Source: a virus (lineage: Duplodnaviria; Caudoviricetes). Taken from it: DNA of 64,000 bases. The notes beneath the pieces were generated by a model, which saw only the letters and a list, made by a program, of their open reading frames with translations, had not been told where the DNA came from and searched no databases. The position numbers were made by a program, and so were the translations under genes. Position 1 is the stretch's first letter. Each line of letters begins with the position of its first letter. Location: IMG/VR virus record IMGVR_UViG_3300037067_002514, positions 26,044-90,043 of that record. One strand, given 5' to 3'. This document shows positions 53,196-64,000 of this stretch, one piece after another.

Positions 53196-53621
53196 TTATA
53201 TCCCTGTACTACCAAACCCACCCTCACCTCTATCTGTAACAGAAAGTTCTTCAACTTCCCCAAATGTTAAAGGAATAACTTCTTTAAGTTCACACTGAGC
53301 TACTCTATCCCCAATATTTATGTGGGCTATATCAATACCTATATTACGAAGTATTATCTTTACCTCCCCACGAAAATTAGCATCTATAGTGCCTGGGCTA
53401 TTAAGGATTATAATATTCTTTGAGGATAGACCACTTCTAGGTATAACCTTCAAGCAGTACCCTTTAGGAATCTCTACAGCTAATCCAGTACCTACTTTAA
53501 TGGTATCACTAGGGAATAGCATGTGATACTCTGATGCATATAGATCAAAACAGGCATCATCTTCATGTGATTTTGTAGGTTCCTTGGCATTTTCATTAAT
53601 CTTCTTATATTTTACTAGCAT
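53196..53621 (-). CDS. dut: Trimeric dUTPase
   Basis: ACFDLYA, PRSGLS, GTIDANFRGEV, RGEGGFGSTG. Confidence 0.95.
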   Translation of the reverse strand: MLVKYKKINENAKEPTKSHEDDACFDLYASEYHMLFPSDTIKVGTGLAVEIPKGYCLKVIPRSGLSSKNIIILNSPGTIDANFRGEVKIILRNIGIDIAHINIGDRVAQCELKEVIPLTFGEVEELSVTDRGEGGFGSTGI

Positions 53622-54844: not shown

Positions 54845-54903
54845 AGAAATTAAGATATAATATCTTAATTTCTTACTAAGTAGGTATTAAATACCTACTT
54901 AGT
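54845..54903. repeat. Two adjacent 13-bp-arm palindromes
   Basis: AGAAATTAAGATA-TAA-TATCTTAATTTCT (54845-54873) and ACTAAGTAGGTAT-TAA-ATACCTACTTAGT (54875-54903). Confidence 0.9.
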
Positions 54904-55443
54904 TATATTATTTATTATATTATATATATATAATATATTACTAGGAGTATAAAGTATAAAATAACCTACCCTCTTACCCTCTGAAAGGTTAAGAGGTAAA
55001 TCCAAATGAATCCCCTGAAAGTTATGCCTTCTTTCCTTAACTGCCCGCCACTTGTTTCCCCTTCTAGTATCCACAAAAGCGTGGATGTTGTATACTTTAT
55101 TATTATGTAAAATAACGTAATCTACACCATTAATATCTTTTTCTAGGTCGTAGATAACATTATCAAAGTTTTCTTTTAATAAAAATCCAAGGTGGTATTC
55201 TCTAACAAAAGAGAGATAAGCTCTAGTTAATCTACCTATACTGCCTTGAATTATGTATTCTGGAAATTTTTCTTTATAATTTTTAAGGAATGTATCTAAA
55301 CTAGGTGGAAGATCATTATGTATTAACCCTCTAAATACATTAATCATTCCAGGCATTTTAGTATATTCAGCTTTATTATTAATCTCATGGGGGATTACTA
55401 CTTTATACTTTTCTAATTCCCTTTCTAGTAATAATCTATCCAT
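54895..55443 (-). CDS. Putative PD-(D/E)XK nuclease, TaqI-like
   Basis: GRLTRAYLSFVREYH...F..V...EKDINGVDYVI...YNIH pattern, recalled from memory only. Confidence 0.4.
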   Translation of the reverse strand: MDRLLLERELEKYKVVIPHEINNKAEYTKMPGMINVFRGLIHNDLPPSLDTFLKNYKEKFPEYIIQGSIGRLTRAYLSFVREYHLGFLLKENFDNVIYDLEKDINGVDYVILHNNKVYNIHAFVDTRRGNKWRAVKERRHNFQGIHLDLPLNLSEGKRVGYFILYTPSNILYIYNIINNITK

Positions 55444-55446
55444 ACT

Positions 55447-55617
55447 TTAAGTATACCGCACAAATCTCATCTTGTCAATATCTTTAATATCTAAATGAAT
55501 ATAATCTATTTCCCCCTCAGTTTCTATCCAACAAATAAACTTAACGGGGCATTGTCTACATATACCATTACACTCACCTAGTAACATATTCTTCTTTCTA
55601 TTCTTACTGACTATCAA
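55447..55617 (-). CDS. Small 4-Cys protein, paralogue of 55604-55825 (not in ORF track; alternative ATG at 55587)
   Basis: ...GECNGICRQCPVKFICWIE...DKMRFVRYT*. Confidence 0.65.
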   Translation of the reverse strand: MIVSKNRKKNMLLGECNGICRQCPVKFICWIETEGEIDYIHLDIKDIDKMRFVRYT

Positions 55618-55825
55618 TCTCTTCAAGGTATAACTCCTTAATCCATTTAACTTTATCTAATCTAAGGTATTTCATCTTACTTAATTCCTCTCTAGTAACT
55701 ATAATCCTCTTATCCCCATTAATATAACACTTAAATTTAACATAGCATTTATCACATAAACCATTACACTGTTCCTTAAGAGATAATATAACATCACCCT
55801 CTAGTAAGTCAATATTCTTCCTCAT
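55604..55825 (-). CDS. Small 4-Cys protein, possibly leaderless
   Basis: CNGLCDKCYVKFKC; ATG 5 nt after a TATAAT box. Confidence 0.65.
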   Translation of the reverse strand: MRKNIDLLEGDVILSLKEQCNGLCDKCYVKFKCYINGDKRIIVTREELSKMKYLRLDKVKWIKELYLEEIDSQ

Positions 55826-55830
55826 AATAT

Positions 55831-55859
55831 ATTATACAATAATATATTATAAAAGTCAA
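55831..55859 (-). promoter_or_regulatory. Sigma70-type promoter
   Basis: TTGACT-17-TATAAT. Confidence 0.65.
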
Positions 55860-55881
55860 CAATATTAGAATAGTCTATAGG

Positions 55882-55918
55882 TGTACATACCTGTCCAGTG
55901 GTTGTATATACCTGTCCA
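55882..55918. repeat. Iteron-like 16-bp direct repeat, 21-bp period
   Basis: TGTACATACCTGTCCA (55882-55897) and TGTATATACCTGTCCA (55903-55918). Confidence 0.8.
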
Positions 55919-56089
55919 TAGGTTACTAATAACATAACTAATTTATATTATGTAAACTAAGTTTGTATTTTTCTTTAATATCAAGTTTGGGTAACACAAC
56001 CCCCAGGCACCTGACATAGACCGTATCAAAGTTATTGATACCCTGGGGGGAGTACTATTGATATAAGTCATATCAATACTTTAGATAAA

Positions 56090-56116
56090 ACAGGCCGTGG
56101 GTTTAACACGGCCTGT
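56090..56116 (-). terminator. Intrinsic terminator
   Basis: ACAGGCCGTG-N7-CACGGCCTGT followed by TTT on the minus strand. Confidence 0.75.
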
Positions 56117-56126
56117 ATCAACTATA

Positions 56127-56372
56127 TTACAATTTCATATGAAGAGGCTTAACTGGAAACCTCCAGACTTCTCTCTCCTCATCGCAGGCTCTCTGCAAAT
56201 CCTCTTCAATAGGTTTAACATAGTTTATGCGATTATAACAGGTCTCACATATACCATCTATTGACATCTCCTCAATATATCCATTACCTATTCCTATTCC
56301 ACATCTTGAACACTTCATATCAACTATTCTCCTATATTTATTACCAGTTCTAAGCAGGAACTGGCAAGGCAC
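56127..56372 (-). CDS. Small Zn-finger protein (probable start MKCSRC)
   Basis: CSRCG...CETC. Confidence 0.5.
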   Translation of the reverse strand: MPCQFLLRTGNKYRRIVDMKCSRCGIGIGNGYIEEMSIDGICETCYNRINYVKPIEEDLQRACDEEREVWRFPVKPLHMKL

Positions 56373-56387
56373 TTGATATACTTTGTG

Positions 56388-57137
56388 TTAATCTACTGAA
56401 TGGTCTTCCTGAATTATTATACCATTCAAATAGACTTTACCGCTTTTGGTAGGTTGTGGAATTATGCCGCTTTTATAAAAGTGATTACCTATTGGGACAG
56501 CATAAGTAATAGACTTGCCTATATCATCTGGACTATGGCCACCTTGCGATGCTATACGGCATGAACTAACACGTTCTCTTCCCTCGAAGTCATATCTAAA
56601 TAGACGGAATGTACCTCTTATAAATGTTATAGGGTGAATAAGCGCATGAAGTGACTTTTTACTTTTAGTCAAGTCAATTCTACACTCATTAACTACTGTT
56701 TGCGAGTCCATCGTATATGATAGTCTTTCTATTGACTTCTTAATGTTCACAACTAAGTTTACTAGTTTAGTCTTATTCATTTTATCAATTGTAGTAATAG
56801 ATAATTGATTAAGATTATTCAGAGTAGTTAATAAATTAAGCATTTCAGCCTGACTTCTTAATATATGCTCATTTTCTAACTGGTGGCTGGATTTACCTTG
56901 ACTACCTTTGAAGGTATTCAAATTTATTAGAATAGCTTCAAAGTATGCTTCTTTGAAGTTATCATAAGACAATGATTCGTTATATTTATCATTGTATAAG
57001 ATGTGACTAGCGGATAATTGACTATCTGCTAGTATACGAGACTTTTTCAGTAATATCTCGTATTCTGCATTTCTCTGCTGAATAAAGCGTACTTTATCCG
57101 CATTGTGTATTACTGTGTTAACTAATTCGTTTTCCAT
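56388..57137 (-). CDS. Hypothetical protein (candidate regulator)
   Basis: 249 aa with its own promoter TTGCAA-18-TATAAT (57214-57185), overlapped by two TGGTATT sites. Confidence 0.55.
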   Translation of the reverse strand: MENELVNTVIHNADKVRFIQQRNAEYEILLKKSRILADSQLSASHILYNDKYNESLSYDNFKEAYFEAILINLNTFKGSQGKSSHQLENEHILRSQAEMLNLLTTLNNLNQLSITTIDKMNKTKLVNLVVNIKKSIERLSYTMDSQTVVNECRIDLTKSKKSLHALIHPITFIRGTFRLFRYDFEGRERVSSCRIASQGGHSPDDIGKSITYAVPIGNHFYKSGIIPQPTKSGKVYLNGIIIQEDHSVD

Positions 57138-57551
57138 TTTAGATACCGCCTATTTATTTATTTCTGTTTATCTCAGATAATTTTATTATATCATAAAATA
57201 ATACCAAATTGCAATAAATAATACCATATTTAAGGACAAATTTTAAAAGTTGTCCTCTTACAATTCATTATTAAGTTTAGTGACCAGTTTATATCAATAT
57301 GTTGTTTTTCATGTTTTGGTAATAGTCCGCTAATTTTAATGGTCTAATACTGTGTTTTTATGTAGCTAAAATTGATCTAGTGACTACTTTATTACCTAGG
57401 TATAGTATTACTATGGTTTACTACCAATAATGGCGTGTTATCAATTCTAGCGTGTTTAGCGATTAATCGTATTGTGGATATTATAATCCTGGCTAAAAAG
57501 TAAAGAGTATTGATATATTCTAGTAAATAGCACATATGTTCTAATATGCTG

Positions 57552-57579
57552 CTTAAATTGGTATTAATACCAATTTAAG
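57552..57579. repeat. 28-bp perfect palindrome containing the recurrent operator-like motif
   Basis: CTTAAATTGGTATT/AATACCAATTTAAG. Confidence 0.9.
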
Positions 57580-57686
57580 GATACCATCAAGAAAAAATAC
57601 CAATCCAAATATTGTAGAACAGCCAGTACCATTTATATTTTTATAGAATAGATTAATACCAATTTAAAAAATATAGAACAGCCGTT

Positions 57687-57818
57687 CTACTTTATATTTT
57701 TATAAGCAATCTCAATTAGTTTAAGGTATGTCTTATTAGCTACTCTTTTAAGGTATCCCTTAGGGCAATAAAAACAACCACTTCTACTTTTACCACCATG
57801 ACAATAATAATCCTTCAT
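57687..57818 (-). CDS. Small Cys-containing protein (43 aa, not in ORF track)
   Basis: AAGGAG RBS; MKDYYCHGGKSRSGCFYCPKGYLKRVANKTYLKLIEIAYKNIK; followed by hairpin TAGAAC-GGCT-GTTCTA plus T-run. Confidence 0.6.
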   Translation of the reverse strand: MKDYYCHGGKSRSGCFYCPKGYLKRVANKTYLKLIEIAYKNIK

Positions 57819-57830
57819 ATATCTCCTTAC

Positions 57831-57859
57831 ATAGGATAGGGTATTATACCCTATCCTAT
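57831..57859. terminator. 13-bp hairpin after gene 57870-58235
   Basis: ATAGGATAGGGTA-TTA-TACCCTATCCTAT. Confidence 0.6.
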
Positions 57860-57869
57860 AGTCATTCTG

Positions 57870-58235
57870 CTATCTCTCATCGCTATAGACATACTCGTCA
57901 AATAACCTGTCTATGCAATAAGAGAAACGATCATCAGCCTGTTTTTTAGCTTGTAGGAATTCAGTTTCTGCCATCTCTATTTCACGTGCTTTTATATCAC
58001 ATATAGAGTAATAAAAGGTTACCATACCCCTTAAATCCTCAACATAGGTCACAGGCTTAAAGATACTCTTATACCAATATTCATATCTTCCGCATGGGTC
58101 TACATAGGCTATTTTACTTACTTTGTCAATGTTAGTCTCATTGTCTTCCCATTGCCACTCTTTAATAAGGCAGTCCAGTATACCATCAATATCCTGGGCA
58201 CGATAATTGTTACCATCAATAACTAATTCAAACAT
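57870..58235 (-). CDS. Hypothetical protein
   Basis: 121 aa; AAGGAG RBS; own promoter module. Confidence 0.65.
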   Translation of the reverse strand: MFELVIDGNNYRAQDIDGILDCLIKEWQWEDNETNIDKVSKIAYVDPCGRYEYWYKSIFKPVTYVEDLRGMVTFYYSICDIKAREIEMAETEFLQAKKQADDRFSYCIDRLFDEYVYSDER

Positions 58236-58265
58236 CTCATATACTCCTTATTTCATTATAGTGTA

Positions 58266-58345
58266 ATTCTATCATAACCTAATAAGTATGTCTAATTAAT
58301 ATAATACCAGTTTAGGTCATCTATTCCTGGTTGGTATTAATACCA
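58266..58345 (-). promoter_or_regulatory. Stereotyped promoter module 1
   Basis: Palindrome 58332-58345; TGGTATT 58309-58303; TAGACA-17-TAGAAT. Confidence 0.75.
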
Positions 58346-58412
58346 TATTAATAAAATACTTTAGAGAAAATACCAATCTCTAAAGTATAGAACAGCATTA
58401 ACAGTTTATATT

Positions 58413-58568
58413 TTAACAGTGCCTAACAGAGAATTGCCTAGATTTTATAATATCCACGATTACCCAATTCATGTAGTCCATAGATAGCATATTCAATTCA
58501 TGATACCTATTTCGTACAATGTGCATTTCCTTGAATGATAGGTTATTAATAAGTGATCTAAATGCCAT
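58413..58568 (-). CDS. Hypothetical protein (51 aa, not in ORF track)
   Basis: AGGAGG RBS; MAFRSLINNLSFKEMHIVRNRYHELNMLSMDYMNWVIVDIIKSRQFSVRHC. Confidence 0.65.
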   Translation of the reverse strand: MAFRSLINNLSFKEMHIVRNRYHELNMLSMDYMNWVIVDIIKSRQFSVRHC

Positions 58569-58594
58569 AACTAACCTCCTTAAACTATAATATC

Positions 58595-58675
58595 AGTATA
58601 CCATGGATCTACTAGGATGTAAAATATATTTAATACCATTTTATTACTTATACAACTTTTAAGGTATTAATACCA
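58595..58675 (-). promoter_or_regulatory. Stereotyped promoter module 2
   Basis: Palindrome 58662-58675 (1 mismatch); half-site 58638-58632; TTTACA-17-TATACT. Confidence 0.75.
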
Positions 58676-58693
58676 TATATATTTAATAAGATA

Positions 58694-58754
58694 ATACCAC
58701 TAGCACTGATAGCCTAACGCTTATAATAAACGCCGCAACTTGTGCTAGTGGTAT
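58694..58754. terminator. 13-bp inverted repeat with 35-nt loop after gene 58761
   Basis: ATACCACTAGCAC...GTGCTAGTGGTAT. Confidence 0.45.
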
Positions 58755-58760
58755 ACTAAC

Positions 58761-59009
58761 CTATTGCTTTATCTGGGATAGTTCGCTTTCAGTAAATACA
58801 CAATAGTCTCTTAGACCATGCTTTACATGTACTTCTACTCTATCAGGACTACGTTTCCAAGTCTTAATGGATGTCACCCTTGCCCTCATAGGTGTCTTTT
58901 TATCCACATTGAATTTTATGGTAGAATAAATCCACTGGCCTTGCTTTAATTGTTTAGCTTCTGTAAGTGTCATTGCATCCTCCTTAATCCTTATACTTAA
59001 GTATAGCAT
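58761..59009 (-). CDS. Hypothetical protein (probable start MTLTEAK at 58973)
   Basis: AAGGAGG RBS upstream of 58973. Confidence 0.6.
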   Translation of the reverse strand: MLYLSIRIKEDAMTLTEAKQLKQGQWIYSTIKFNVDKKTPMRARVTSIKTWKRSPDRVEVHVKHGLRDYCVFTESELSQIKQ

Positions 59010-59080
59010 ATAATATAGTATAGTTCAAATCAATATAATACCAAATTTTATCCCATCCTAGTAAGCTGGTATTTATACCA
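59000..59080 (-). promoter_or_regulatory. Stereotyped promoter module 3
   Basis: Palindrome 59067-59080; half-site 59043-59037; TTGAAC-17-TATACT with TG extension; GAAA-tetraloop hairpin at 59089-59102. Confidence 0.75.
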
Positions 59081-59106
59081 TATTATATAGGGCTTTCGCC
59101 CTTTAC

Positions 59107-59400
59107 CTATGCTATTCTATCAAAGCCTATTGAACAACATTCATATAGCTTATCCTCTATCATTAGTAAATCACCCACTGACATAGAAGTATGTAAACTA
59201 TGATCTCTTATAAACCATTGAGTTACTGTCAAATACTTATCAGGGACAGTATTTAGTATATCAAAGATCTTCCCCTTAGTCACCTCACTACAAAAGAATG
59301 AGTCCATTACTTTTTCATACTTTAATAGCACGTCTTTTAATGTTGGAAAGCAAGCCTTAAAATCTGAATCAACTTTGTAGAATACCCTTACTCTATTCAT
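59107..59400 (-). CDS. YodL-like domain protein
   Basis: HTSMSVGDLLMI...YECCSIGF resembles the YodL HSLSVSDVV..GF signature. Confidence 0.5.
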   Translation of the reverse strand: MNRVRVFYKVDSDFKACFPTLKDVLLKYEKVMDSFFCSEVTKGKIFDILNTVPDKYLTVTQWFIRDHSLHTSMSVGDLLMIEDKLYECCSIGFDRIA

Positions 59401-59427
59401 TTAATTCCCCCTTACTACTATATTATA

Positions 59428-59507
59428 ATTATATAATATCTAATTAAGAATGTAAAATTAATAAAGTACCATTTATTATAAGGGATTTAGTTATGGTATT
59501 AATACCA
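59428..59507 (-). promoter_or_regulatory. Stereotyped promoter module 4
   Basis: Palindrome 59494-59507; TGGTACT 59471-59465; TTTACA-17-TATAAT. Confidence 0.75.
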
Positions 59508-59559
59508 TCTTACTTACACTGGTACAAAATAGTACCAGGTTTATTTTATAGAACAGCAA

Positions 59560-60231
59560 TTATTTATTATAACTTAACAGTTTATCAATACTTAACTCAT
59601 TAACATTACATACCTTATGCTTTTTCTGGTTAACATAACTCCAATCACACCCCGATATAATTTCACCTAGTGCATTAAGGTATAATAAACCATCATTTAC
59701 ATAATCGTCTTCTTCAACTTCAAATCCTGAATCGTAAGGCTTCCTATTATTATTATGTTTACTTCTACCCTCTGATATTGGGTCATAAAATTCACCATCT
59801 TTGTATTTAGTACTAGCAAAAGATAGTGTTAGTAGTTTATTATAGTTAGGTTTATTATCCAATGTACTTATGTGATAGCCATCATTTGAAATATGTACCT
59901 GTGATATCTCATTATCTTGGCATAGAGAATACAGGTTAATACAAGATAATATAAACTTATCACTAGGATTAATCCCATTAGTAGCTATATAGAAGTTACC
60001 TATATAAATCTTTTTCTTTTTAGCTACCTTTATGAAATGATCTATAGCTTCACAGTTTAAGCTAGGTTCACCCCCAGTAAAGGTTATATCATCTATAGAG
60101 TCAACTTTAGATAATAGGGTATCAATATACCTATTATCTATATTGATAGATTGCTTACCACCTCTTAAGCAGTGGCTACAAGATAACTGACATCTTCTAG
60201 TTACTTCAATCAATAAATTACTTACTTTCAT
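59560..60231 (-). CDS. Radical SAM protein
   Basis: VTRRCQLSCSHC (CxxxCxxC), ITFTGGEPSL, IATNG. Confidence 0.85.
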   Translation of the reverse strand: MKVSNLLIEVTRRCQLSCSHCLRGGKQSINIDNRYIDTLLSKVDSIDDITFTGGEPSLNCEAIDHFIKVAKKKKIYIGNFYIATNGINPSDKFILSCINLYSLCQDNEISQVHISNDGYHISTLDNKPNYNKLLTLSFASTKYKDGEFYDPISEGRSKHNNNRKPYDSGFEVEEDDYVNDGLLYLNALGEIISGCDWSYVNQKKHKVCNVNELSIDKLLSYNK

Positions 60232-60248
60232 TTCACCCTCCTATATAT

Positions 60249-60328
60249 AGTATATAGTATCTTATTTAATCTATCAAGTAATAATAATACCAATTTTACT
60301 AGGTTGAGACTATATAGTATTAATACCA
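60249..60328 (-). promoter_or_regulatory. Stereotyped promoter module 5
   Basis: Palindrome 60315-60328 (1 mismatch); half-site 60292-60286; TTGATA-17-TATACT. Confidence 0.75.
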
Positions 60329-60337
60329 TCTTAATGA

Positions 60338-60366
60338 GATAGGATAGCTTTTTGGGCTATCCTATC
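60338..60366. terminator. 11-bp hairpin terminator
   Basis: GATAGGATAGC-N7-GCTATCCTATC. Confidence 0.65.
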
Positions 60367-60370
60367 AATA

Positions 60371-60523
60371 TCAGTTTATTCTGGGGTCTTCAATGATGTT
60401 AATGTTTTTTCTTGAAGCAGCTTTTTGTAACCTTAGTATTCTATACCTTATTACCTTATTGTCGCTAATCTCATCCATTTTAGCTTTTAATTTCATCCTG
60501 TGAATTCTGTTAGCACCTTTCAT
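60371..60523 (-). CDS. Small basic protein (50 aa, not in ORF track)
   Basis: AAGGAG RBS; MKGANRIHRMKLKAKMDEISDNKVIRYRILRLQKAASRKNINIIEDPRIN. Confidence 0.6.
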   Translation of the reverse strand: MKGANRIHRMKLKAKMDEISDNKVIRYRILRLQKAASRKNINIIEDPRIN

Positions 60524-60560
60524 TGACTTCTCCTTATTTATTACTTACTTATACTATATA

Positions 60561-60860
60561 CTATTTTATATTATTATGCAACTTATTTACTATCTTAGTA
60601 TATCTTCTTGATCTCATACCTAAGATGGTATCCAGTGATTCGCATAGTAATCTTAGTTCCCTTGTATCCCCTGCTATCCTTTCAGCAGTAAGGCCATAAT
60701 GGGTATGTTCCCCGCATTCCATAAGATCATTAAGCAGTGTACTATTAAGCTTGTTAATGTCTTCTCTTAGTAACCTTATGCCTATTTGAAGACTGCTTAC
60801 AAGTGCATTGTGATCAATTTCAACCTTGTTAAAAGATAGGTCATTCTTAGTTAATTTCAT
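60561..60860 (-). CDS. Hypothetical helical protein
   Basis: 99 aa; AAGGGGG RBS; own promoter module. Confidence 0.6.
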   Translation of the reverse strand: MKLTKNDLSFNKVEIDHNALVSSLQIGIRLLREDINKLNSTLLNDLMECGEHTHYGLTAERIAGDTRELRLLCESLDTILGMRSRRYTKIVNKLHNNIK

Positions 60861-60885
60861 TTCATACCCCCTTATATTATACTTA

Positions 60886-60965
60886 ATCTTAGCATGTTTT
60901 CAGGATATACTCAAATAAAATTAATACCAGTTTATCCTTGGCATTGTTTTATGGTACTTATACCA
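60886..60965 (-). promoter_or_regulatory. Stereotyped promoter module 6
   Basis: TGGTACTTATACCA 60952-60965; half-site 60929-60923; TTGAGT-17-TAAGAT with TG extension. Confidence 0.7.
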
Positions 60966-61032
60966 ACTTAAGTAATCTATCCTAGTAGAGTACCATATTT
61001 ACCCTACTAGAACAGAACAGGTATTGAATACT

Positions 61033-61380
61033 TTATCTGTTTCTTAACCACTTCCTTATCTTTTTAAGTACTCTTAACTTAGTCCTTAAACAAATGCTAT
61101 CCCACCATTTAGAATCATCATTGGAATATACAGTATATAATACCTCCTCATATAGGGCACTCTCATCTTGATAAATTATTTTGTGATCTACGGTAATATT
61201 CTTATACTTATTATTATCTGAGTCCCATTCAGGTGCAAAGCAATGTATAGGGCATAGGCAGTCATAACCATTATAAGCGTTAATATATACCCTAGGTTCT
61301 GTTAATAACTGTCCCCCTGTCTTCCCTTCCAGTTCCAATAGGTGCTCTATTATTTTCTGATACCTTTTCTCACTGATCAT
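61033..61380 (-). CDS. Hypothetical protein, single copy of a CPI/DSxWW domain
   Basis: Aligns by eye to both halves of 61776-62384. Confidence 0.7.
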   Translation of the reverse strand: MISEKRYQKIIEHLLELEGKTGGQLLTEPRVYINAYNGYDCLCPIHCFAPEWDSDNNKYKNITVDHKIIYQDESALYEEVLYTVYSNDDSKWWDSICLRTKLRVLKKIRKWLRNR

Positions 61381-61410
61381 TTAATTCCCCCTGTCCTTCA
61401 TTCTATTATA

Positions 61411-61490
61411 AGTATAAAGCATTGTAGCCTAGTTGTAAAATGATAAAAATACCAGACTAGAAATATTAAATATTTATGGTATTAATACCA
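61411..61490 (-). promoter_or_regulatory. Stereotyped promoter module 7
   Basis: Palindrome 61477-61490; half-site 61454-61448; TTTACA-17-TATACT. Confidence 0.75.
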
Positions 61491-61565
61491 TGTTATATAG
61501 TACTATTAAAATAATACCAATTCTAGCTTACTAGAACAGAACCTAATTATAATATTTTTAAGGTG

Positions 61566-61727
61566 CTAGATATTACTTACCCAGTAGTTGTTTATCTTAC
61601 AAGCTACAAAGTACAGCATATTATCCTGTTTTATTATTATCCTGTTCCTAGTTGCATTTACATTATAACCTCCTTTTCTACACTCTTTTAGTATCCCTGA
61701 AATGTCTTGGTTAGAATATAGTTTCAT
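61566..61727 (-). CDS. Hypothetical protein (53 aa, not in ORF track)
   Basis: AAGGGGG RBS; MKLYSNQDISGILKECRKGGYNVNATRNRIIIKQDNMLYFVACKINNYWVSNI. Confidence 0.6.
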   Translation of the reverse strand: MKLYSNQDISGILKECRKGGYNVNATRNRIIIKQDNMLYFVACKINNYWVSNI

Positions 61728-61775
61728 ATACCCCCTTAATACTTTGTCCCATAGGCAACCCTCCTTATTATAATA

Positions 61776-62384
61776 TTATTTATATTTTAGCCATAATGTC
61801 ATTCTATATATATATTTGTCAGTTTCCTCTTTGGATAACCTATTCCACCAACTAGAATCCGATAACTTGTATACTTCGTATATAGTACCCCCAAATGATA
61901 ATTGACCCATGCCATAGTAGTCTATTTTATTACCCTCTGCGTCTTCGTCTGGGGTACATGAGAGTATAGGGCATATTATAGGGGTATGTTCTAATTTAAG
62001 GGGTTTACCTGTATGCTTTTCAAGGGTAAGCAGATTAGATATCAGGGTATCATACCTATCTATATCTATATCCCCGTATTTTATTATATCCTTTTTTAAC
62101 TTAGATAGTACGCCCTTTTTTGTTGAGCTATATAGCGACTTCCACCATTTAGAATCTTTGGGGGTATATGCTTTGATTGGGGGCGTTCTGTCATAGTGTA
62201 TATTACCATAATTATCACAGAATGAATAGTCCTCATTATTAAAGTAATTAGGGGCATGGTTAGCTATGGGACAATCACAATTATAGAAACTATACCTTGC
62301 AATCCCCCTTAATGGATACTTGCCTTGTCTCTCTAGCTCAAATAGGTGAAATAGAATCTTCTCATAATTAACCTTTGTTATCAT
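61776..62384 (-). CDS. Hypothetical protein, tandem duplicate of the CPI/DSxWW domain
   Basis: Two ~100-aa repeats (CDCPI..DSKWW; IICPI..DSSWW). Confidence 0.7.
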   Translation of the reverse strand: MITKVNYEKILFHLFELERQGKYPLRGIARYSFYNCDCPIANHAPNYFNNEDYSFCDNYGNIHYDRTPPIKAYTPKDSKWWKSLYSSTKKGVLSKLKKDIIKYGDIDIDRYDTLISNLLTLEKHTGKPLKLEHTPIICPILSCTPDEDAEGNKIDYYGMGQLSFGGTIYEVYKLSDSSWWNRLSKEETDKYIYRMTLWLKYK

Positions 62385-62415
62385 CTTAATCCCCCTTAAT
62401 CTATATTCTTATATT

Positions 62416-62497
62416 ATTATATGGTATCTGTAATAAAAAGTAAAGATAAAATAATACCAATTTTAAATTACTAGGAAGGATTTTGGTATTAATACTA
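62416..62497 (-). promoter_or_regulatory. Stereotyped promoter module 8
   Basis: Palindrome 62484-62497 (1 mismatch); half-site 62459-62453; TTTACT-17-TATAAT. Confidence 0.75.
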
Positions 62498-62570
62498 TAT
62501 ATCACACTTTAAAAATAAAAAATACCAGGTTACCATATTTCAGGCAATCTGGTATTAAATTAACTTGACA

Positions 62571-62593
62571 GGGGGAAGGTTTTATGCTTCCCC
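62571..62593. terminator. Terminator-like hairpin after the DUF932 gene
   Basis: GGGGGAAG-N7-CTTCCCCC. Confidence 0.6.
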
Positions 62594-62601
62594 CATTTGA
62601 T

Positions 62602-63597
62602 CTAGTCTTTTAACAGATAGCTGAAGGCACGTTCTTTTATAGCGTTACCACTTCCGAATAATACAGCATTCATTCTCTTAGAATCAGATAGGTCTGACTT
62701 ACCTATCCTATAGGTCTTATAATGATCTGTATACTCAGTTATAGCATTATACCAATCGTACTTAGTGCCTTGTCCTGATATTCCCTTGCCTTGTCCATGA
62801 GCAAGTTCTGAGATAAATTCCATATCTTCCTTAACTGGTTTGTATAGCTCTTCCATTTTTAATCCTTGCTCTTTTAATCCAAAGGACTCAGCAAGTAACA
62901 AAGGTGCCTGCGCTGGGGGTAGCATATGAGTAGCTAAGTACTTTACTTGCTCTTCAAAGGCTAAGAAAAACTTATTAGTTATTCCTAGTATATCCTGTGC
63001 ATCCCGTACCTTAGACATTATATTAGTAGTATGCTTTGCGTAGAATCTGTTAGCGTTACCACTAGCACAAGCTGATCTCAGGGTGTTATTGCATACTACT
63101 CTTACGGGGGTGAAAAACATACTTAAGGCATCGCTGCCGTCATGGGAATTGATAAGTAATAAGTACTTCTCAATATCAGAATCAGGCATATGGATAACGT
63201 CATTTATCTTAGCTAGTATCCATATCCTTGCACCGTTGAATAGACTGCCAACTGTGTGATACATTGCAAAGTTACCACCAACTACGCTATCGAACAACTT
63301 GAATGCTTCAACGTTCTGGATAGGGACATATCTTGACGATACACAATTATATACTGCATTATCCCTTACCCGCCTTACTAGGTACTTATCTGGTACGCTA
63401 AGGTATTTACCTGAATCCCCCTCAGGTACATATTGATAGCAGTCAGTTACTTCAACCTCATCATCTAACTGCGCTGCTATAATAGCTTCCTGTGAGGTCA
63501 TAGGATGATCTACCTTAATACCTAACTTATGCCATGGTAAATCCCCAAAGTAAGCCATCTGTGCGCTACCATTCTTAAAACTTAACTCGTGAGCCAT
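62602..63597 (-). CDS. DUF932 / phage-plasmid TIGR03299-family protein
   Basis: MAHEL...PWHKLG, YVPIQNVEAF, GSLFNGARIW, LLLINSHDGS, TPVRVVCNNTL. Confidence 0.88.
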   Translation of the reverse strand: MAHELSFKNGSAQMAYFGDLPWHKLGIKVDHPMTSQEAIIAAQLDDEVEVTDCYQYVPEGDSGKYLSVPDKYLVRRVRDNAVYNCVSSRYVPIQNVEAFKLFDSVVGGNFAMYHTVGSLFNGARIWILAKINDVIHMPDSDIEKYLLLINSHDGSDALSMFFTPVRVVCNNTLRSACASGNANRFYAKHTTNIMSKVRDAQDILGITNKFFLAFEEQVKYLATHMLPPAQAPLLLAESFGLKEQGLKMEELYKPVKEDMEFISELAHGQGKGISGQGTKYDWYNAITEYTDHYKTYRIGKSDLSDSKRMNAVLFGSGNAIKERAFSYLLKD

Positions 63598-63634
63598 TTC
63601 ATTATTCCCCCTTACTATTTATTTATCTATTCTA

Positions 63635-63733
63635 ATAATAGCTTATCTGAATAAGGATGTCAATAGTAAAAAATACCAGTTTAAAATAAAAATACCAAAA
63701 TTCCTGGCTGGGATTGTACTGGTATAAATACCA
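63635..63733 (-). promoter_or_regulatory. Stereotyped promoter module 9 (with an extra half-site)
   Basis: TGGTATAAATACCA 63720-63733; half-sites 63697-63691 and 63678-63672; TTGACA-17-TATTAT. Confidence 0.8.
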
Positions 63734-63828
63734 TATAACCTATCCTAGTAGAAAGTCTACCATAAAGATAGAACAGACTACTAGAACAGGATTAGAACAG
63801 GATACCTTTACAGTATCCTAAAGGGGGA

Positions 63829-63999
63829 CTACTCAATTTCACGATAATTATCAACTATTAATTCTACGATATCCTTACATTCTCTAAGGCTAAAGCCGTC
63901 TGGGATAACATTTTTAGAATGCTCCCTTACTGCCTTTATTAAGTTAATCTTATTATACTCCTTATCCTCTTTGTGCAAGATAACCCATAAATCAGCAAG
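63829..63999 (-). CDS. 3' end of a protein with ribosomal bL12 (L7/L12) C-terminal-domain-like motif (truncated by window edge)
   Basis: ...KINLIKAVREHSKNVIPDGFSLRECKDIVE... matches the K-I-x-x-I-K-x-V-R-E...G-L-x-E-A-K-D-x-V-E pattern. Confidence 0.6.
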   Translation of the reverse strand, partial: LADLWVILHKEDKEYNKINLIKAVREHSKNVIPDGFSLRECKDIVELIVDNYREIE

Positions 64000-64000
64000 G

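What the first reader, a model, noticed from the sequence alone, without database searches (positions are those of the whole stretch)
58266..63733. Array of nine self-contained expression cassettes with base-exact operator-promoter architecture
Seen: nine intergenic regions share, on the minus strand, a TGGTATTAATACCA-type palindrome, then 22-24 bp, then TGGTA(T/C)T, then exactly 8 bp, then -35, 17 bp, -10 and a strong RBS. Eight modules span 80-82 bp; the ninth has one extra half-site 19 bp further upstream. Flanking sequence is otherwise divergent, extra half-sites lie further upstream, and most cargo genes are unknown small proteins. Established: T4-type phages shuffle accessory genes via repeated promoter cassettes (PeSLs). 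Inference: this is an undescribed regulon or cassette system in which one DNA-binding protein coordinately switches a battery of early or anti-host genes, and the repeats may also drive cassette gain and loss.
Basis: partly seen in the sequence, partly recalled or inferred. Interest (0 to 1): 0.85.

Follow-up and report, generated by a model that had tools for sequence, protein, structure and literature searches.

The report
Shared operator at phage early promoters
An uncultured phage fragment has nine host-type promoters in a row, each with the same upstream set of protein-docking motifs at base-exact spacing; this is most likely one still unidentified regulator switching a block of small orphan genes together, a layout already known from other phages.

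Summary
In the 90-kb contig, TGGTAYT-8 bp-(-35)-17 bp-(-10) occurs exactly nine times. All nine are on the sense strand and all lie in this 6.5-kb block; random sequence gives 0.07. Each is preceded by a TGGTATTAATACCA-type palindrome 22-24 bp upstream. A tenth palindrome, without a promoter, lies at 57559.

All 36 TGGTAYT copies in the block are intergenic, and 21 of 22 solitary copies point along transcription. Each unit also has a predicted stem-loop upstream of the palindrome, so "terminator-operator-promoter-RBS-gene" cassettes is a fair description.

Best reading: a multi-site operator for one unidentified DNA-binding protein that acts on RNA polymerase from a fixed position next to the -35. 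Because the core promoters are near consensus, it more likely shuts them off than turns them on.

The recombination (PeSL-like shuffling) part is not supported: modules share at most 18 bp, all of it motif, and two near-identical metagenome fragments show the same cassette order.

No regulator was found. The contig is about 56% complete, and the suggested 249-aa protein has no homologues and no usable fold. This scan has already noted the same kind of phased operator at early promoters in several other uncultured phages, and SPbeta (SPBRE/MrpR) is a characterised precedent. It is a new variant of a known kind.

The parts
63720..63733 (-). M1 palindrome TGGTATTTATACCA (1 mismatch)
63635..63697 (-). 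M1 half-sites 63691-63697 and 63672-63678 (19 bp apart), -35 TTGACA 63658-63663, -10 TATTAT 63635-63640; drives the DUF932/TIGR03299 gene 62602-63597
62416..62527 (-). M2: upstream half-site 62521-62527 (3' arm of a U-tailed hairpin), palindrome 62484-62497, half-site 62453-62459, -35 TTTACT 62439-62444, -10 TATAAT 62416-62421; drives 61776-62384 (202 aa) and 61566-61727 (53 aa)
61411..61519 (-). M3: upstream half-site 61513-61519, palindrome 61477-61490, half-site 61448-61454, -35 TTTACA, -10 TATACT; drives 61033-61380 (115 aa, paralogue of the 202-aa protein)
60886..60995 (-). M4: upstream half-site 60989-60995 (in a hairpin), palindrome 60952-60965 (2 mismatches), half-site 60923-60929, -35 TTGAGT, -10 TAAGAT; drives 60561-60860 (99 aa) and 60371-60523 (50 aa)
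60249..60328 (-). M5: palindrome 60315-60328, half-site 60286-60292, -35 TTGATA, -10 TATACT; drives the small radical-SAM gene 59560-60231
59428..59537 (-). M6: upstream half-site 59531-59537 (in a hairpin), palindrome 59494-59507, half-site TGGTACT 59465-59471, -35 TTTACA, -10 TATAAT; drives 59107-59400 (97 aa)
59000..59080 (-). M7: palindrome 59067-59080, half-site 59037-59043 (23-bp spacer), -35 TTGAAC, -10 TATACT; drives 58761-58973 (70 aa; the ATG at 59009 lies upstream of the -10, so it is not the start)
58595..58699 (-). M8: upstream half-site 58693-58699 (3' arm of a long hairpin), palindrome 58662-58675, half-site 58632-58638, -35 TTTACA, -10 TATACT; drives 58413-58568 (51 aa)
58266..58375 (-). 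M9: upstream half-site 58369-58375 (loop of a hairpin), palindrome 58332-58345, half-site 58303-58309, -35 TAGACA, -10 TAGAAT; drives 57870-58235 (121 aa) and 57687-57818 (43 aa)
57552..57704 (-). M10: perfect 28-bp palindrome 57552-57579 (core 57559-57572) preceded by three sense half-sites 29-30 bp apart inside a 59-bp tandem duplication. No promoter follows, only about 430 bp without a credible gene.
57185..57226 (-). Promoter of the 249-aa orphan gene (56388-57137): TTGCAA-18-TATAAT with one TGGTATT 5 bp upstream of the -35 and a second inside the spacer, 20 bp apart

Best explanation
The block is a regulon of nine host-type (sigma-70/sigmaA-like) promoters. Each has the same multi-site operator for one sequence-specific DNA-binding protein that has not been identified.

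Inferred mechanism: the protein binds as a dimer to the palindrome centred near -80. It binds as a single oriented subunit to the TGGTAYT half-site at about -50 to -44, and often to a further half-site about 30 bp upstream of the palindrome. Neighbouring sites are about 30 bp apart centre to centre (roughly three helical turns), so the bound proteins can form one complex on roughly one face of the DNA.

The promoter-proximal subunit sits at a base-exact distance from the -35, where it can touch RNA polymerase (alpha C-terminal domain or sigma region 4). The core promoters are already close to consensus, so the most likely effect is coordinated shut-off of the block after the first minutes of infection, in the manner of phi29 p4 at promoter A2c or MrpR at SPBRE sites. 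Activation is not excluded. At the next gene's promoter a half-site lies inside the -35/-10 spacer, which would give plain occlusion.

Shown: the motifs, their spacings, their intergenic and orientation bias, the promoter-like hexamers and the predicted stem-loops. Inferred: protein binding, the sign of regulation and the timing.
For: - Nine composite modules against 0.07 expected; none at any other spacing or on the other strand.
- Only motifs and distances are conserved. The 22-24 bp spacers and flanks differ, and the longest shared string is 18 bp. This is the pattern expected from selection on binding sites, not from recent duplication.
- All 36 half-site copies are intergenic, and 21 of 22 solitary copies point along transcription.
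- A palindrome plus half-sites is the usual signature of a dimeric binder with cooperative auxiliary sites. The M10 site extends to a perfect 28-mer whose arms match the extended solo consensus AAAYTGGTATT.
- M1 is a natural spacing experiment: a 19-bp longer region carries two half-sites, so both the 22-bp and the 8-bp rule are kept.
- Core promoters score 8-11 of 12 (seven of the nine at 10 or 11), all with 17-bp spacers and several with a TGn/TRTG extended -10. They should fire without help.
- Two near-identical environmental variants have 31 differences, all in coding DNA and none in the modules.
- Precedents read: SPBRE/MrpR (PMC10516654); oriented asymmetric stoperators (PMC9283540).
Against: - No binding protein was found. 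HTH_3, Sigma70_r4, Sigma70_r4_2, GerE, AbrB/MazE and integrase profiles give nothing in six frames. Pfam, PHROGs and NCBIfam find no DNA-binding domain in the neighbouring genes.
- The 249-aa candidate has no homologue among 1.84 billion representatives and folds at pLDDT 34.
- There are no transcript data, so the promoters and their timing are predictions. No RNA holder was listed.
- No diverged relative could be fetched, so motif-regulator co-variation could not be tested.
- No operator overlaps the core promoter in the nine modules, which is unusual for simple repressors.
- The variant SNPs are clustered, so their absence from the modules is weak evidence.
Confidence: 0.6

Rival explanations
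1. Positive control: the protein (host-encoded, injected with the DNA, or made from a gene upstream in the missing part of the genome) recruits RNA polymerase. The block would then be a delayed-early or boosted class, like class I/II activators or Mu Mor.
For: - The 8-bp distance to the -35 and the single orientation of the proximal half-site are base-exact, which is typical of activators that must touch polymerase.
- A virtual 14-bp site at the proximal position would be centred near -43.5 (my own arithmetic).
- The contig is only about 56% complete and the array touches its end, so earlier genes may exist.
Against: - The core promoters are near consensus with optimal 17-bp spacers, whereas activator-dependent phage promoters usually lack a good -35 (general knowledge).
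- At the 249-aa gene's promoter one site lies inside the spacer, which can only hinder polymerase.
Confidence: 0.2
2. The motifs are sites for a host global regulator. The phage uses them to sense host state and silence its early genes, as phi29 and Nf do with Spo0A boxes next to their early promoters.
For: - Precedent read in PMC2731898.
- No phage-encoded DNA-binding protein is recognisable in the 90 kb.
Against: - The exact 14-mer occurs in 11 of 401 sampled Clostridia-class genomes, once each, and the reversed control occurs in 9. That is chance level, with no host regulon visible.
- The strict module pattern in 185,579 species genomes gave 9 hits. Those inspected have no promoter-like hexamers after the half-site, and several lie in sequence conserved between related genomes.
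- The host is unknown, so the sample may miss it.
Confidence: 0.1
3. PeSL-type mobile regulatory cassettes: the repeated terminator-promoter joints are kept mainly because they serve as recombination points that shuffle orphan genes.
For: - The layout is the same as PeSLs: stem-loop, AT-rich stretch, sigma-70-like promoter, orphan cargo.
- Neighbouring units M2 and M3 carry paralogous cargo at 28-34% identity, so duplication has occurred.
Against: - Shared identity is at most 18 bp and is confined to the motif.
- The stem-loops differ in sequence between units.
- L023 and L027 have the same unit order and spacing.
- No relative with a different cassette content was found.
- Exact spacing to the -35 is not needed for recombination.
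Confidence: 0.07
4. No extra protein is involved. TGGTATTAT-like strings are polymerase-intrinsic elements (extended -10-like TGnTATTAT decoys, tandem promoters or UP-like elements) that raise local polymerase occupancy.
For: Four proximal sites read TGGTATTAT, which is one mismatch from TGnTATAAT.
Against: - The invariant GG, the upstream AAAY, the perfect dyad symmetry of ten sites and the fixed 22-24 bp palindrome distance are not explained.
- Five proximal sites have poor hexamers (TATTTT, TATTAA, TACTTT).
- A sigma-54 reading fails: the GG to GC/GA spacing is 1 to 4 bp too long (direct reading).
Confidence: 0.03

Closest known systems
SPBRE elements and the master repressor MrpR (YopR) of Bacillus phage SPbeta (PMC10516654)
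   Same: - A short repeated element sits in the promoter regions of about ten otherwise unrelated phage genes, many of unknown function.
- It was predicted in silico long before its binder was found.
- One phage protein binds all copies and silences the set.
   Different: - SPbeta is temperate and the element is a single 15-bp motif. Here the operator is composite (palindrome plus oriented half-sites) with base-exact distance to the -35.
- No integrase or tyrosine-recombinase-like protein was detected in the fragment.
- The lifestyle of this phage is unknown.
PeSL (promoter-early stem-loop) cassettes of T4-type phages (PMC2839356, PMC4122927)
   Same: - Composite terminator stem-loop plus AT-rich stretch plus sigma-70-like early promoter.
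- Repeated between small orphan genes in a plastic region.
   Different: - PeSLs have no separate operator motif, and their conserved part is long enough for homologous exchange; mini-circles and indels were shown.
- Here identity is at most 18 bp, the stem-loops are all different, and no exchange was seen.
Operators and stoperators of cluster A mycobacteriophages (L5 gp71; TipsytheTRex repressor, PMC9283540)
   Same: - Many copies of an asymmetric site whose orientation follows the direction of transcription.
- The sites lie in short intergenic spaces and are bound by one phage repressor.
   Different: - Stoperators are spread over the whole genome and block elongation.
- Here sites are confined to one 6.6-kb block, sit at fixed positions upstream of promoters, and include true palindromes.
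phi29 protein p4 (and host Spo0A) at the early A2c/A2b and late A3 promoters (PMC2731898; the p4 mechanism at A2c is from my own knowledge)
   Same: A regulator bound upstream of the -35 at a fixed distance acts through contact with polymerase. It represses strong promoters and activates weak ones. Host-factor boxes next to early promoters are also known.
   Different: - phi29 has only three or four promoters and a different site type.
- No p4-like protein was recognised here.
KorA/KorB global regulon of IncP plasmids, and iteron/inverted-repeat dual binding of plasmid Rep proteins (from my own knowledge, not tested)
   Same: - One palindrome recurs at set distances from many promoters.
- The binder takes a dimer form at the palindrome and a monomer form at direct repeats.
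   Different: - These are plasmid systems tied to partition or replication.
- Only the M10 cluster (four phased sites plus a gene-free stretch) hints at such a second role here.

Membership tests
PeSL cassettes (T4-type phages) | Strong sigma-70-like early promoter with an AT-rich upstream stretch | tested here: met
   Nine promoters score 8-11 of 12 with 17-bp spacers and an AT-rich 8-bp stretch before the -35. This is by consensus only; no transcript data.
PeSL cassettes (T4-type phages) | Adjacent stem-loop acting as terminator for upstream transcription | tested here: met
   Stable predicted hairpins lie upstream of the palindromes: z was -2.2 to -5.9 in nine of the ten folded segments, and M3 was not significant (z -1.2). 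M2, M8, M9 and M10 have U-rich tails. Function was not assayed.
PeSL cassettes (T4-type phages) | Conserved sequence patches long enough for homologous exchange between copies | tested here: not met
   The longest exact match between any two modules is 18 bp (median 13), and it is always the motif.
PeSL cassettes (T4-type phages) | Indels or replacements of orphan genes at the elements between related phages | tested here: inconclusive
   Only two 98.9-99.6% identical fragments could be compared, and both have the same order.
Stoperator-type repressor sites (cluster A mycobacteriophages) | Asymmetric sites oriented with transcription | tested here: met
   21 of 22 solitary TGGTAYT sites are sense-oriented.
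Stoperator-type repressor sites (cluster A mycobacteriophages) | Sites distributed across the genome, including within operons, to stop elongation | tested here: not met
   Sites are confined to 57.2-63.7 kb of the window. The density elsewhere is at background.
SPBRE/MrpR-type master-repressor regulon | One repeated element in the promoter regions of many phage genes | tested here: met
   Ten palindromes and 21 solitary half-sites lie at ten promoter regions plus the promoterless M10.
SPBRE/MrpR-type master-repressor regulon | Cognate phage repressor (tyrosine-recombinase fold in SPbeta) | tested here: inconclusive
   PF00589 gave no match in six frames, but the contig is about 56% complete and MrpR-like proteins may escape that profile.
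Sigma-54 promoters | GG and GC elements separated by exactly 10 bp (TGGCAC-N5-TTGC) | tested here: not met
   In the nine modules TTG starts 4 bp too far downstream and reads TTGA/TTTA. At the 249-aa gene's promoter the spacing is 1 bp too long (direct reading).

The most novel reading that the evidence does not exclude
A single phage protein has two binding modes: dimer on the palindrome and oriented monomer on half-sites. It builds a phased complex of about 110 bp upstream of every early promoter and touches polymerase from -47, so one factor times the whole orphan-gene block. The same protein also marks the promoterless M10 cluster (a perfect 28-bp palindrome, three phased half-sites and a 430-bp gene-free stretch) as a replication or packaging landmark. 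If so, this would be one case of a widespread, unnamed class of 'phased early-promoter operators' in large uncultured phages, whose regulators remain unknown.
Probability: 0.12. Interest if true: 0.65.

Novelty: new variant of a known kind. Interest (0 to 1): 0.4.

Why it matters
Large uncultured phages carry blocks of small orphan genes whose control is unknown. A rigid shared operator gives a direct experimental handle: DNA pull-down with a 14-28 bp probe could identify the regulator of the whole block, in a phage lineage with no cultured relative. The M1 module, and the contrast with the next gene's promoter, offer ready-made spacing variants for dissecting how a factor bound upstream of the -35 controls strong promoters. 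The practical value is modest: a compact, apparently portable promoter-operator part set. The conceptual value depends on whether the many similar arrays noted by this scan share one mechanism.

Tried and rejected
1. Relatives
- Megablast and blastn against cultured phages: no match.
- MCP tblastn: none. PolA best hit is 28% identity or less.
- IMG/VR scans with the DUF932 and MCP proteins found no kin.
- A DUF932 alignment fetched 80 loci, but none shares more than 3 genes or the motif.
- The contig end could not be extended.

2. Motif scans
- IMG/VR hits to the module pattern lie inside a conserved coding sequence of marine phages.
- The half-site-promoter pattern gave only single chance hits.
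- Metagenome hits were two fragments of the same phage, plus two unrelated repeat families.
- Species-genome hits were at chance level.

3. Closed or failed tools
- Read laying was consumed by a filter error and nothing was laid.
- No RNA holder was listed.

4. Regulator hunt
- The 249-aa orphan gave no family, no PDB relative, no homologue and a pLDDT of 34.
- My by-eye sigma-region-4 reading of the 51-aa protein was rejected: there were no profile hits, the model is two short helices plus one long one (pLDDT 79), and Foldseek found no match.

5. Other rejected readings
- Rfam: nothing in 55000-64000.
- nut-like RNA role for the palindromes: they lie after, not before, the upstream stem-loops.

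Full report
CONTEXT

The window is the right-hand 64 kb of a single 90,043-bp virus contig. IMG/VR classes the contig as linear, and CheckV rates it about 56% complete. All genes run on the minus strand. The block under study therefore lies at the transcriptionally upstream end of the fragment and touches the contig edge, so it may continue into missing sequence.

The phage has no close cultured or IMG/VR relative:
- megablast and blastn gave nothing;
- the MCP gave nothing;
- the best PolA hit is 28% identity or less.

DNA runs from groundwater, landfill and manure metagenomes hold parts of the stretch. No RNA run was listed. GC content is about 31-36%. The strong AGGAGG/AAGGGGG ribosome sites, TRTG-type extended -10 boxes and an anaerobic NrdD/NrdG pair suggest an anaerobic Firmicutes-like host. 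That host assignment is an inference.

Reading the minus strand gives nine modules, named M1 to M9 from 63733 down to 58266. Each has this layout:
- a palindrome of the TGGTATTAATACCA type (0-2 mismatches);
- a 22, 23 or 24 bp spacer;
- the half-site TGGTAYT;
- exactly 8 AT-rich bp;
- a -35 hexamer (TTGACA, TTTACA x3, TTTACT, TTGATA, TTGAGT, TTGAAC, TAGACA);
- exactly 17 bp;
- a -10 hexamer (TATAAT x2, TATACT x4, TATTAT, TAGAAT, TAAGAT);
- about 25-35 nt, then a strong RBS.

The composite half-site/-35/-10 pattern occurs nine times on the sense strand of the whole 90 kb. It never occurs on the other strand. No other half-site-to-(-35) spacing from 0 to 20 bp gives more than one match. Markov-1 randomised genomes give 0.07 on average. 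The palindrome occurs 11 times in the window against 0.99 expected, and the rest of the contig has only two weak matches.

All 36 TGGTAYT copies between 56388 and 64000 lie in the 30% of that stretch that is intergenic. Of 22 solitary copies, 21 point along transcription.

(a) There is a tenth site, M10. It is a perfect 28-bp palindrome at 57552-57579. Three sense half-sites 29-30 bp apart precede it, inside a 59-bp tandem duplication. About 430 bp with no promoter or credible gene follow it.

(b) The next promoter, TTGCAA-18-TATAAT in front of a 249-aa orphan gene, has one half-site 5 bp upstream of the -35 and another inside the spacer.

(c) In M1 the region is 19 bp longer and holds two half-sites. 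One keeps the 22-bp distance from the palindrome and the other keeps the 8-bp distance to the -35. Both distances therefore appear to matter independently.

(d) Solitary half-sites share an extended consensus, AAA-Y-TGGTATT followed by a T-rich run. The arms of the M10 palindrome match it.

(e) Measured centre to centre, the upstream half-site, each arm of the palindrome and the proximal half-site are about 29-31 bp from their neighbours. That is close to three helical turns (my arithmetic).

THE UNITS ARE CASSETTES IN THE LOOSE SENSE

In nine of the ten intergenic regions a stable predicted RNA stem-loop lies between the upstream stop codon and the palindrome (z-scores -2.2 to -5.9). M3 was not significant (z -1.2). 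Several stem-loops have U-rich tails. The upstream half-sites often form the loop or the 3' arm of these stem-loops (M2, M4, M6, M8, M9).

A second recurring string, CTGTTCTAGTAG paired with CTACTAGGATAG, forms stems with G.U wobbles, so it works at the RNA level on this strand.

The cargo is:
- a DUF932/TIGR03299 protein;
- a 223-aa radical-SAM protein;
- small proteins with no family hit, of which the 115-aa one was checked and has no homologue at all.

The 202-aa and 115-aa products of neighbouring units are paralogues.

WHAT IT MOST LIKELY IS

Only the motifs and their distances are conserved. The spacers and flanks differ, and no two modules share more than 18 identical bases, always the motif itself. 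This is the signature of purifying selection on protein-binding sites, not of recent duplication.

Dyad symmetry plus oriented half-sites points to a dimeric sequence-specific binder with cooperative auxiliary sites. The base-exact distance to the -35 points to a direct relation with RNA polymerase.

The core promoters are near consensus with optimal spacers, so they should fire unaided on entry. I therefore favour coordinated shut-off over activation. Possible routes are holding polymerase or blocking alpha-CTD/UP contacts from about -47, reinforced by the -80 and -110 sites. The sign of regulation is inference.

The half-site inside the spacer of the 249-aa gene's promoter would give simple occlusion there.

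Weak support comes from two environmental fragments of the same phage, L023 and L027 (98.9% and 99.6% identical). Their 31 differences all fall in coding DNA, but the differences are clustered.

WHO BINDS IS UNKNOWN

- Six-frame profile searches for HTH_3, sigma-70 region 4 (two models), GerE, AbrB/MazE and tyrosine recombinase found nothing in the 90 kb.
- Pfam, PHROGs and NCBIfam found no DNA-binding domain near the block.
- The 249-aa protein has one 86% relative and nothing else among 1.84 billion representatives. It has no PDB relative, and its model is unusable at pLDDT 34.
- My own guess that the 51-aa product of M8 resembles sigma region 4 failed. The model, at pLDDT 79, has two short helices and one long helix, and Foldseek found nothing.
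- The regulator may be an orphan in the block, may be encoded in the missing 44% of the genome, or may be a host protein.
- A test of the host idea was negative. Among 401 Clostridia-class genomes the exact palindrome is no more frequent than its reversed control (11 against 9 genomes, single copies). The host is not known, however.

THE RECOMBINATION IDEA

The layout resembles the PeSLs of T4-type phages: stem-loop, AT-rich stretch, sigma-70-like promoter and orphan cargo (PMC2839356, PMC4122927). The features that make PeSLs recombinogenic are not met here. Shared patches are at most 18 bp and the stem-loops differ. The only comparable variants keep the same order. Paralogous cargo in M2 and M3 shows old duplication, nothing more. 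I could not test cassette turnover in diverged relatives.

COMPARISON WITH KNOWN SYSTEMS

The closest characterised case is the SPBRE element of Bacillus phage SPbeta. It is a repeated motif in about ten promoter regions, and after 24 years it was shown to be the site of the master repressor MrpR (PMC10516654).

The oriented asymmetric sites recall the stoperators of cluster A mycobacteriophages (PMC9283540), but those are genome-wide.

Regulation from a fixed upstream position, and host-factor boxes at early promoters, are known from phi29 and Nf (PMC2731898). The p4 mechanism at A2c is from my own knowledge.

This scan's earlier notes describe the same kind of phased palindromic operator upstream of host-type early promoters in several other uncultured large phages. 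Those are unchecked leads. They show that the kind is recurrent, not that it is explained.

What is particular here is the composite operator (a palindrome at -80 plus an oriented half-site exactly 8 bp from the -35), the M1 spacing variant and the promoterless M10 cluster. The exact motif is absent from the literature library.

VERDICT

The regulon reading is plausible and is the best available. The shuffling reading is unsupported. This is a new variant of a known kind, of moderate interest.

Noticed in passing
window 55824-55923 (-): A different operator-like set sits at the strongest promoter outside the block (TTGACT-17-TATAAT, 55831-55859). Two 21-bp direct repeats (TGGACAGGTATRTACA core) lie just upstream, and two copies of the palindrome ATAATATATTAT overlap the spacer and the -10. 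This looks like a separate regulator's site, in front of two paralogous Cys-rich small genes (55604-55825, 55447-55626).
   Followed up: partly
window 57138-57560 (-): About 430 bp after the perfect 28-bp M10 palindrome have no credible ORF, promoter or Rfam match. Together with four phased half-sites and a 59-bp tandem duplication, this could be an origin, a packaging site or an unknown RNA.
   Followed up: partly
window 54883-54895: A one-base-expanded version of the palindrome (GGTATT-A-AATACC) lies at the stop codon of the 182-aa gene, followed by a long AT hairpin. It may be an eleventh, weaker site.
   Followed up: no
L016, L021, L037, L046, L048, L050 (metagenome contigs, GC about 0.47): An unrelated GC-rich coding sequence is interrupted by many short AT-rich inserts. 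Each insert carries one or two TGGTATNNATACCA palindromes 22 bp apart, with 6-20 near-exact palindrome copies per contig. It looks like a eukaryotic gene with a repeated intron family (introner-like).
   Followed up: partly
L022, L026, L028, L031, L034, L040-L042, L051, L052 (JAAUYA01* contigs): A self-complementary element of about 315 bp recurs with different flanks in one metagenome (70-96% identity between copies). It has two CTGTGGTATTAATACCACAG palindromes 36 bp apart at its centre. It is a repeated foldback or MITE-like element, unrelated to the phage.
   Followed up: partly
window 56526-56651 vs L023: 24 of the 31 differences between the contig and its environmental variants are packed into about 125 bp of the C-terminal half of the 249-aa orphan gene. 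An 86%-identical homologue (P0122) also exists. This suggests a mosaic patch or fast-evolving surface in the candidate regulator.
   Followed up: partly
L262:2997-3464 (-), with L262:6334-6936, L262:1-951 and window 53196-53621: A dATP/dGTP diphosphohydrolase N-terminal domain protein (MazZ/DatZ-like, E 4.5e-17) lies beside ThyX, an HNH-dCMP deaminase fusion and a dUTPase. Whether the DNA carries a modified base was not checked; a modified base would affect operator recognition.
   Followed up: no
window 61033-62384 (-): The 202-aa protein is a tandem duplication of the domain that makes up the neighbouring 115-aa protein (34% and 28% identity). The 115-aa protein has no homologue outside this phage.
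   Followed up: yes
window 63734-63828, 60966-61032 (-): CTGTTCTAGTAG and CTACTAGGATAG form 12-13 bp stems with G.U wobbles around an upstream TGGTA half-site. CTGTTCTA occurs 9 times in the block, against about 3.5 expected in the whole contig on both strands.
   Followed up: partly
window 63829-63999 (-): The open frame running off the contig end gives only a sub-threshold match to the ribosomal L7/L12 C-terminal domain (E 0.001, 19.8 bits against a cut-off of 25.9). The earlier bL12-like reading remains unproven.
   Followed up: partly
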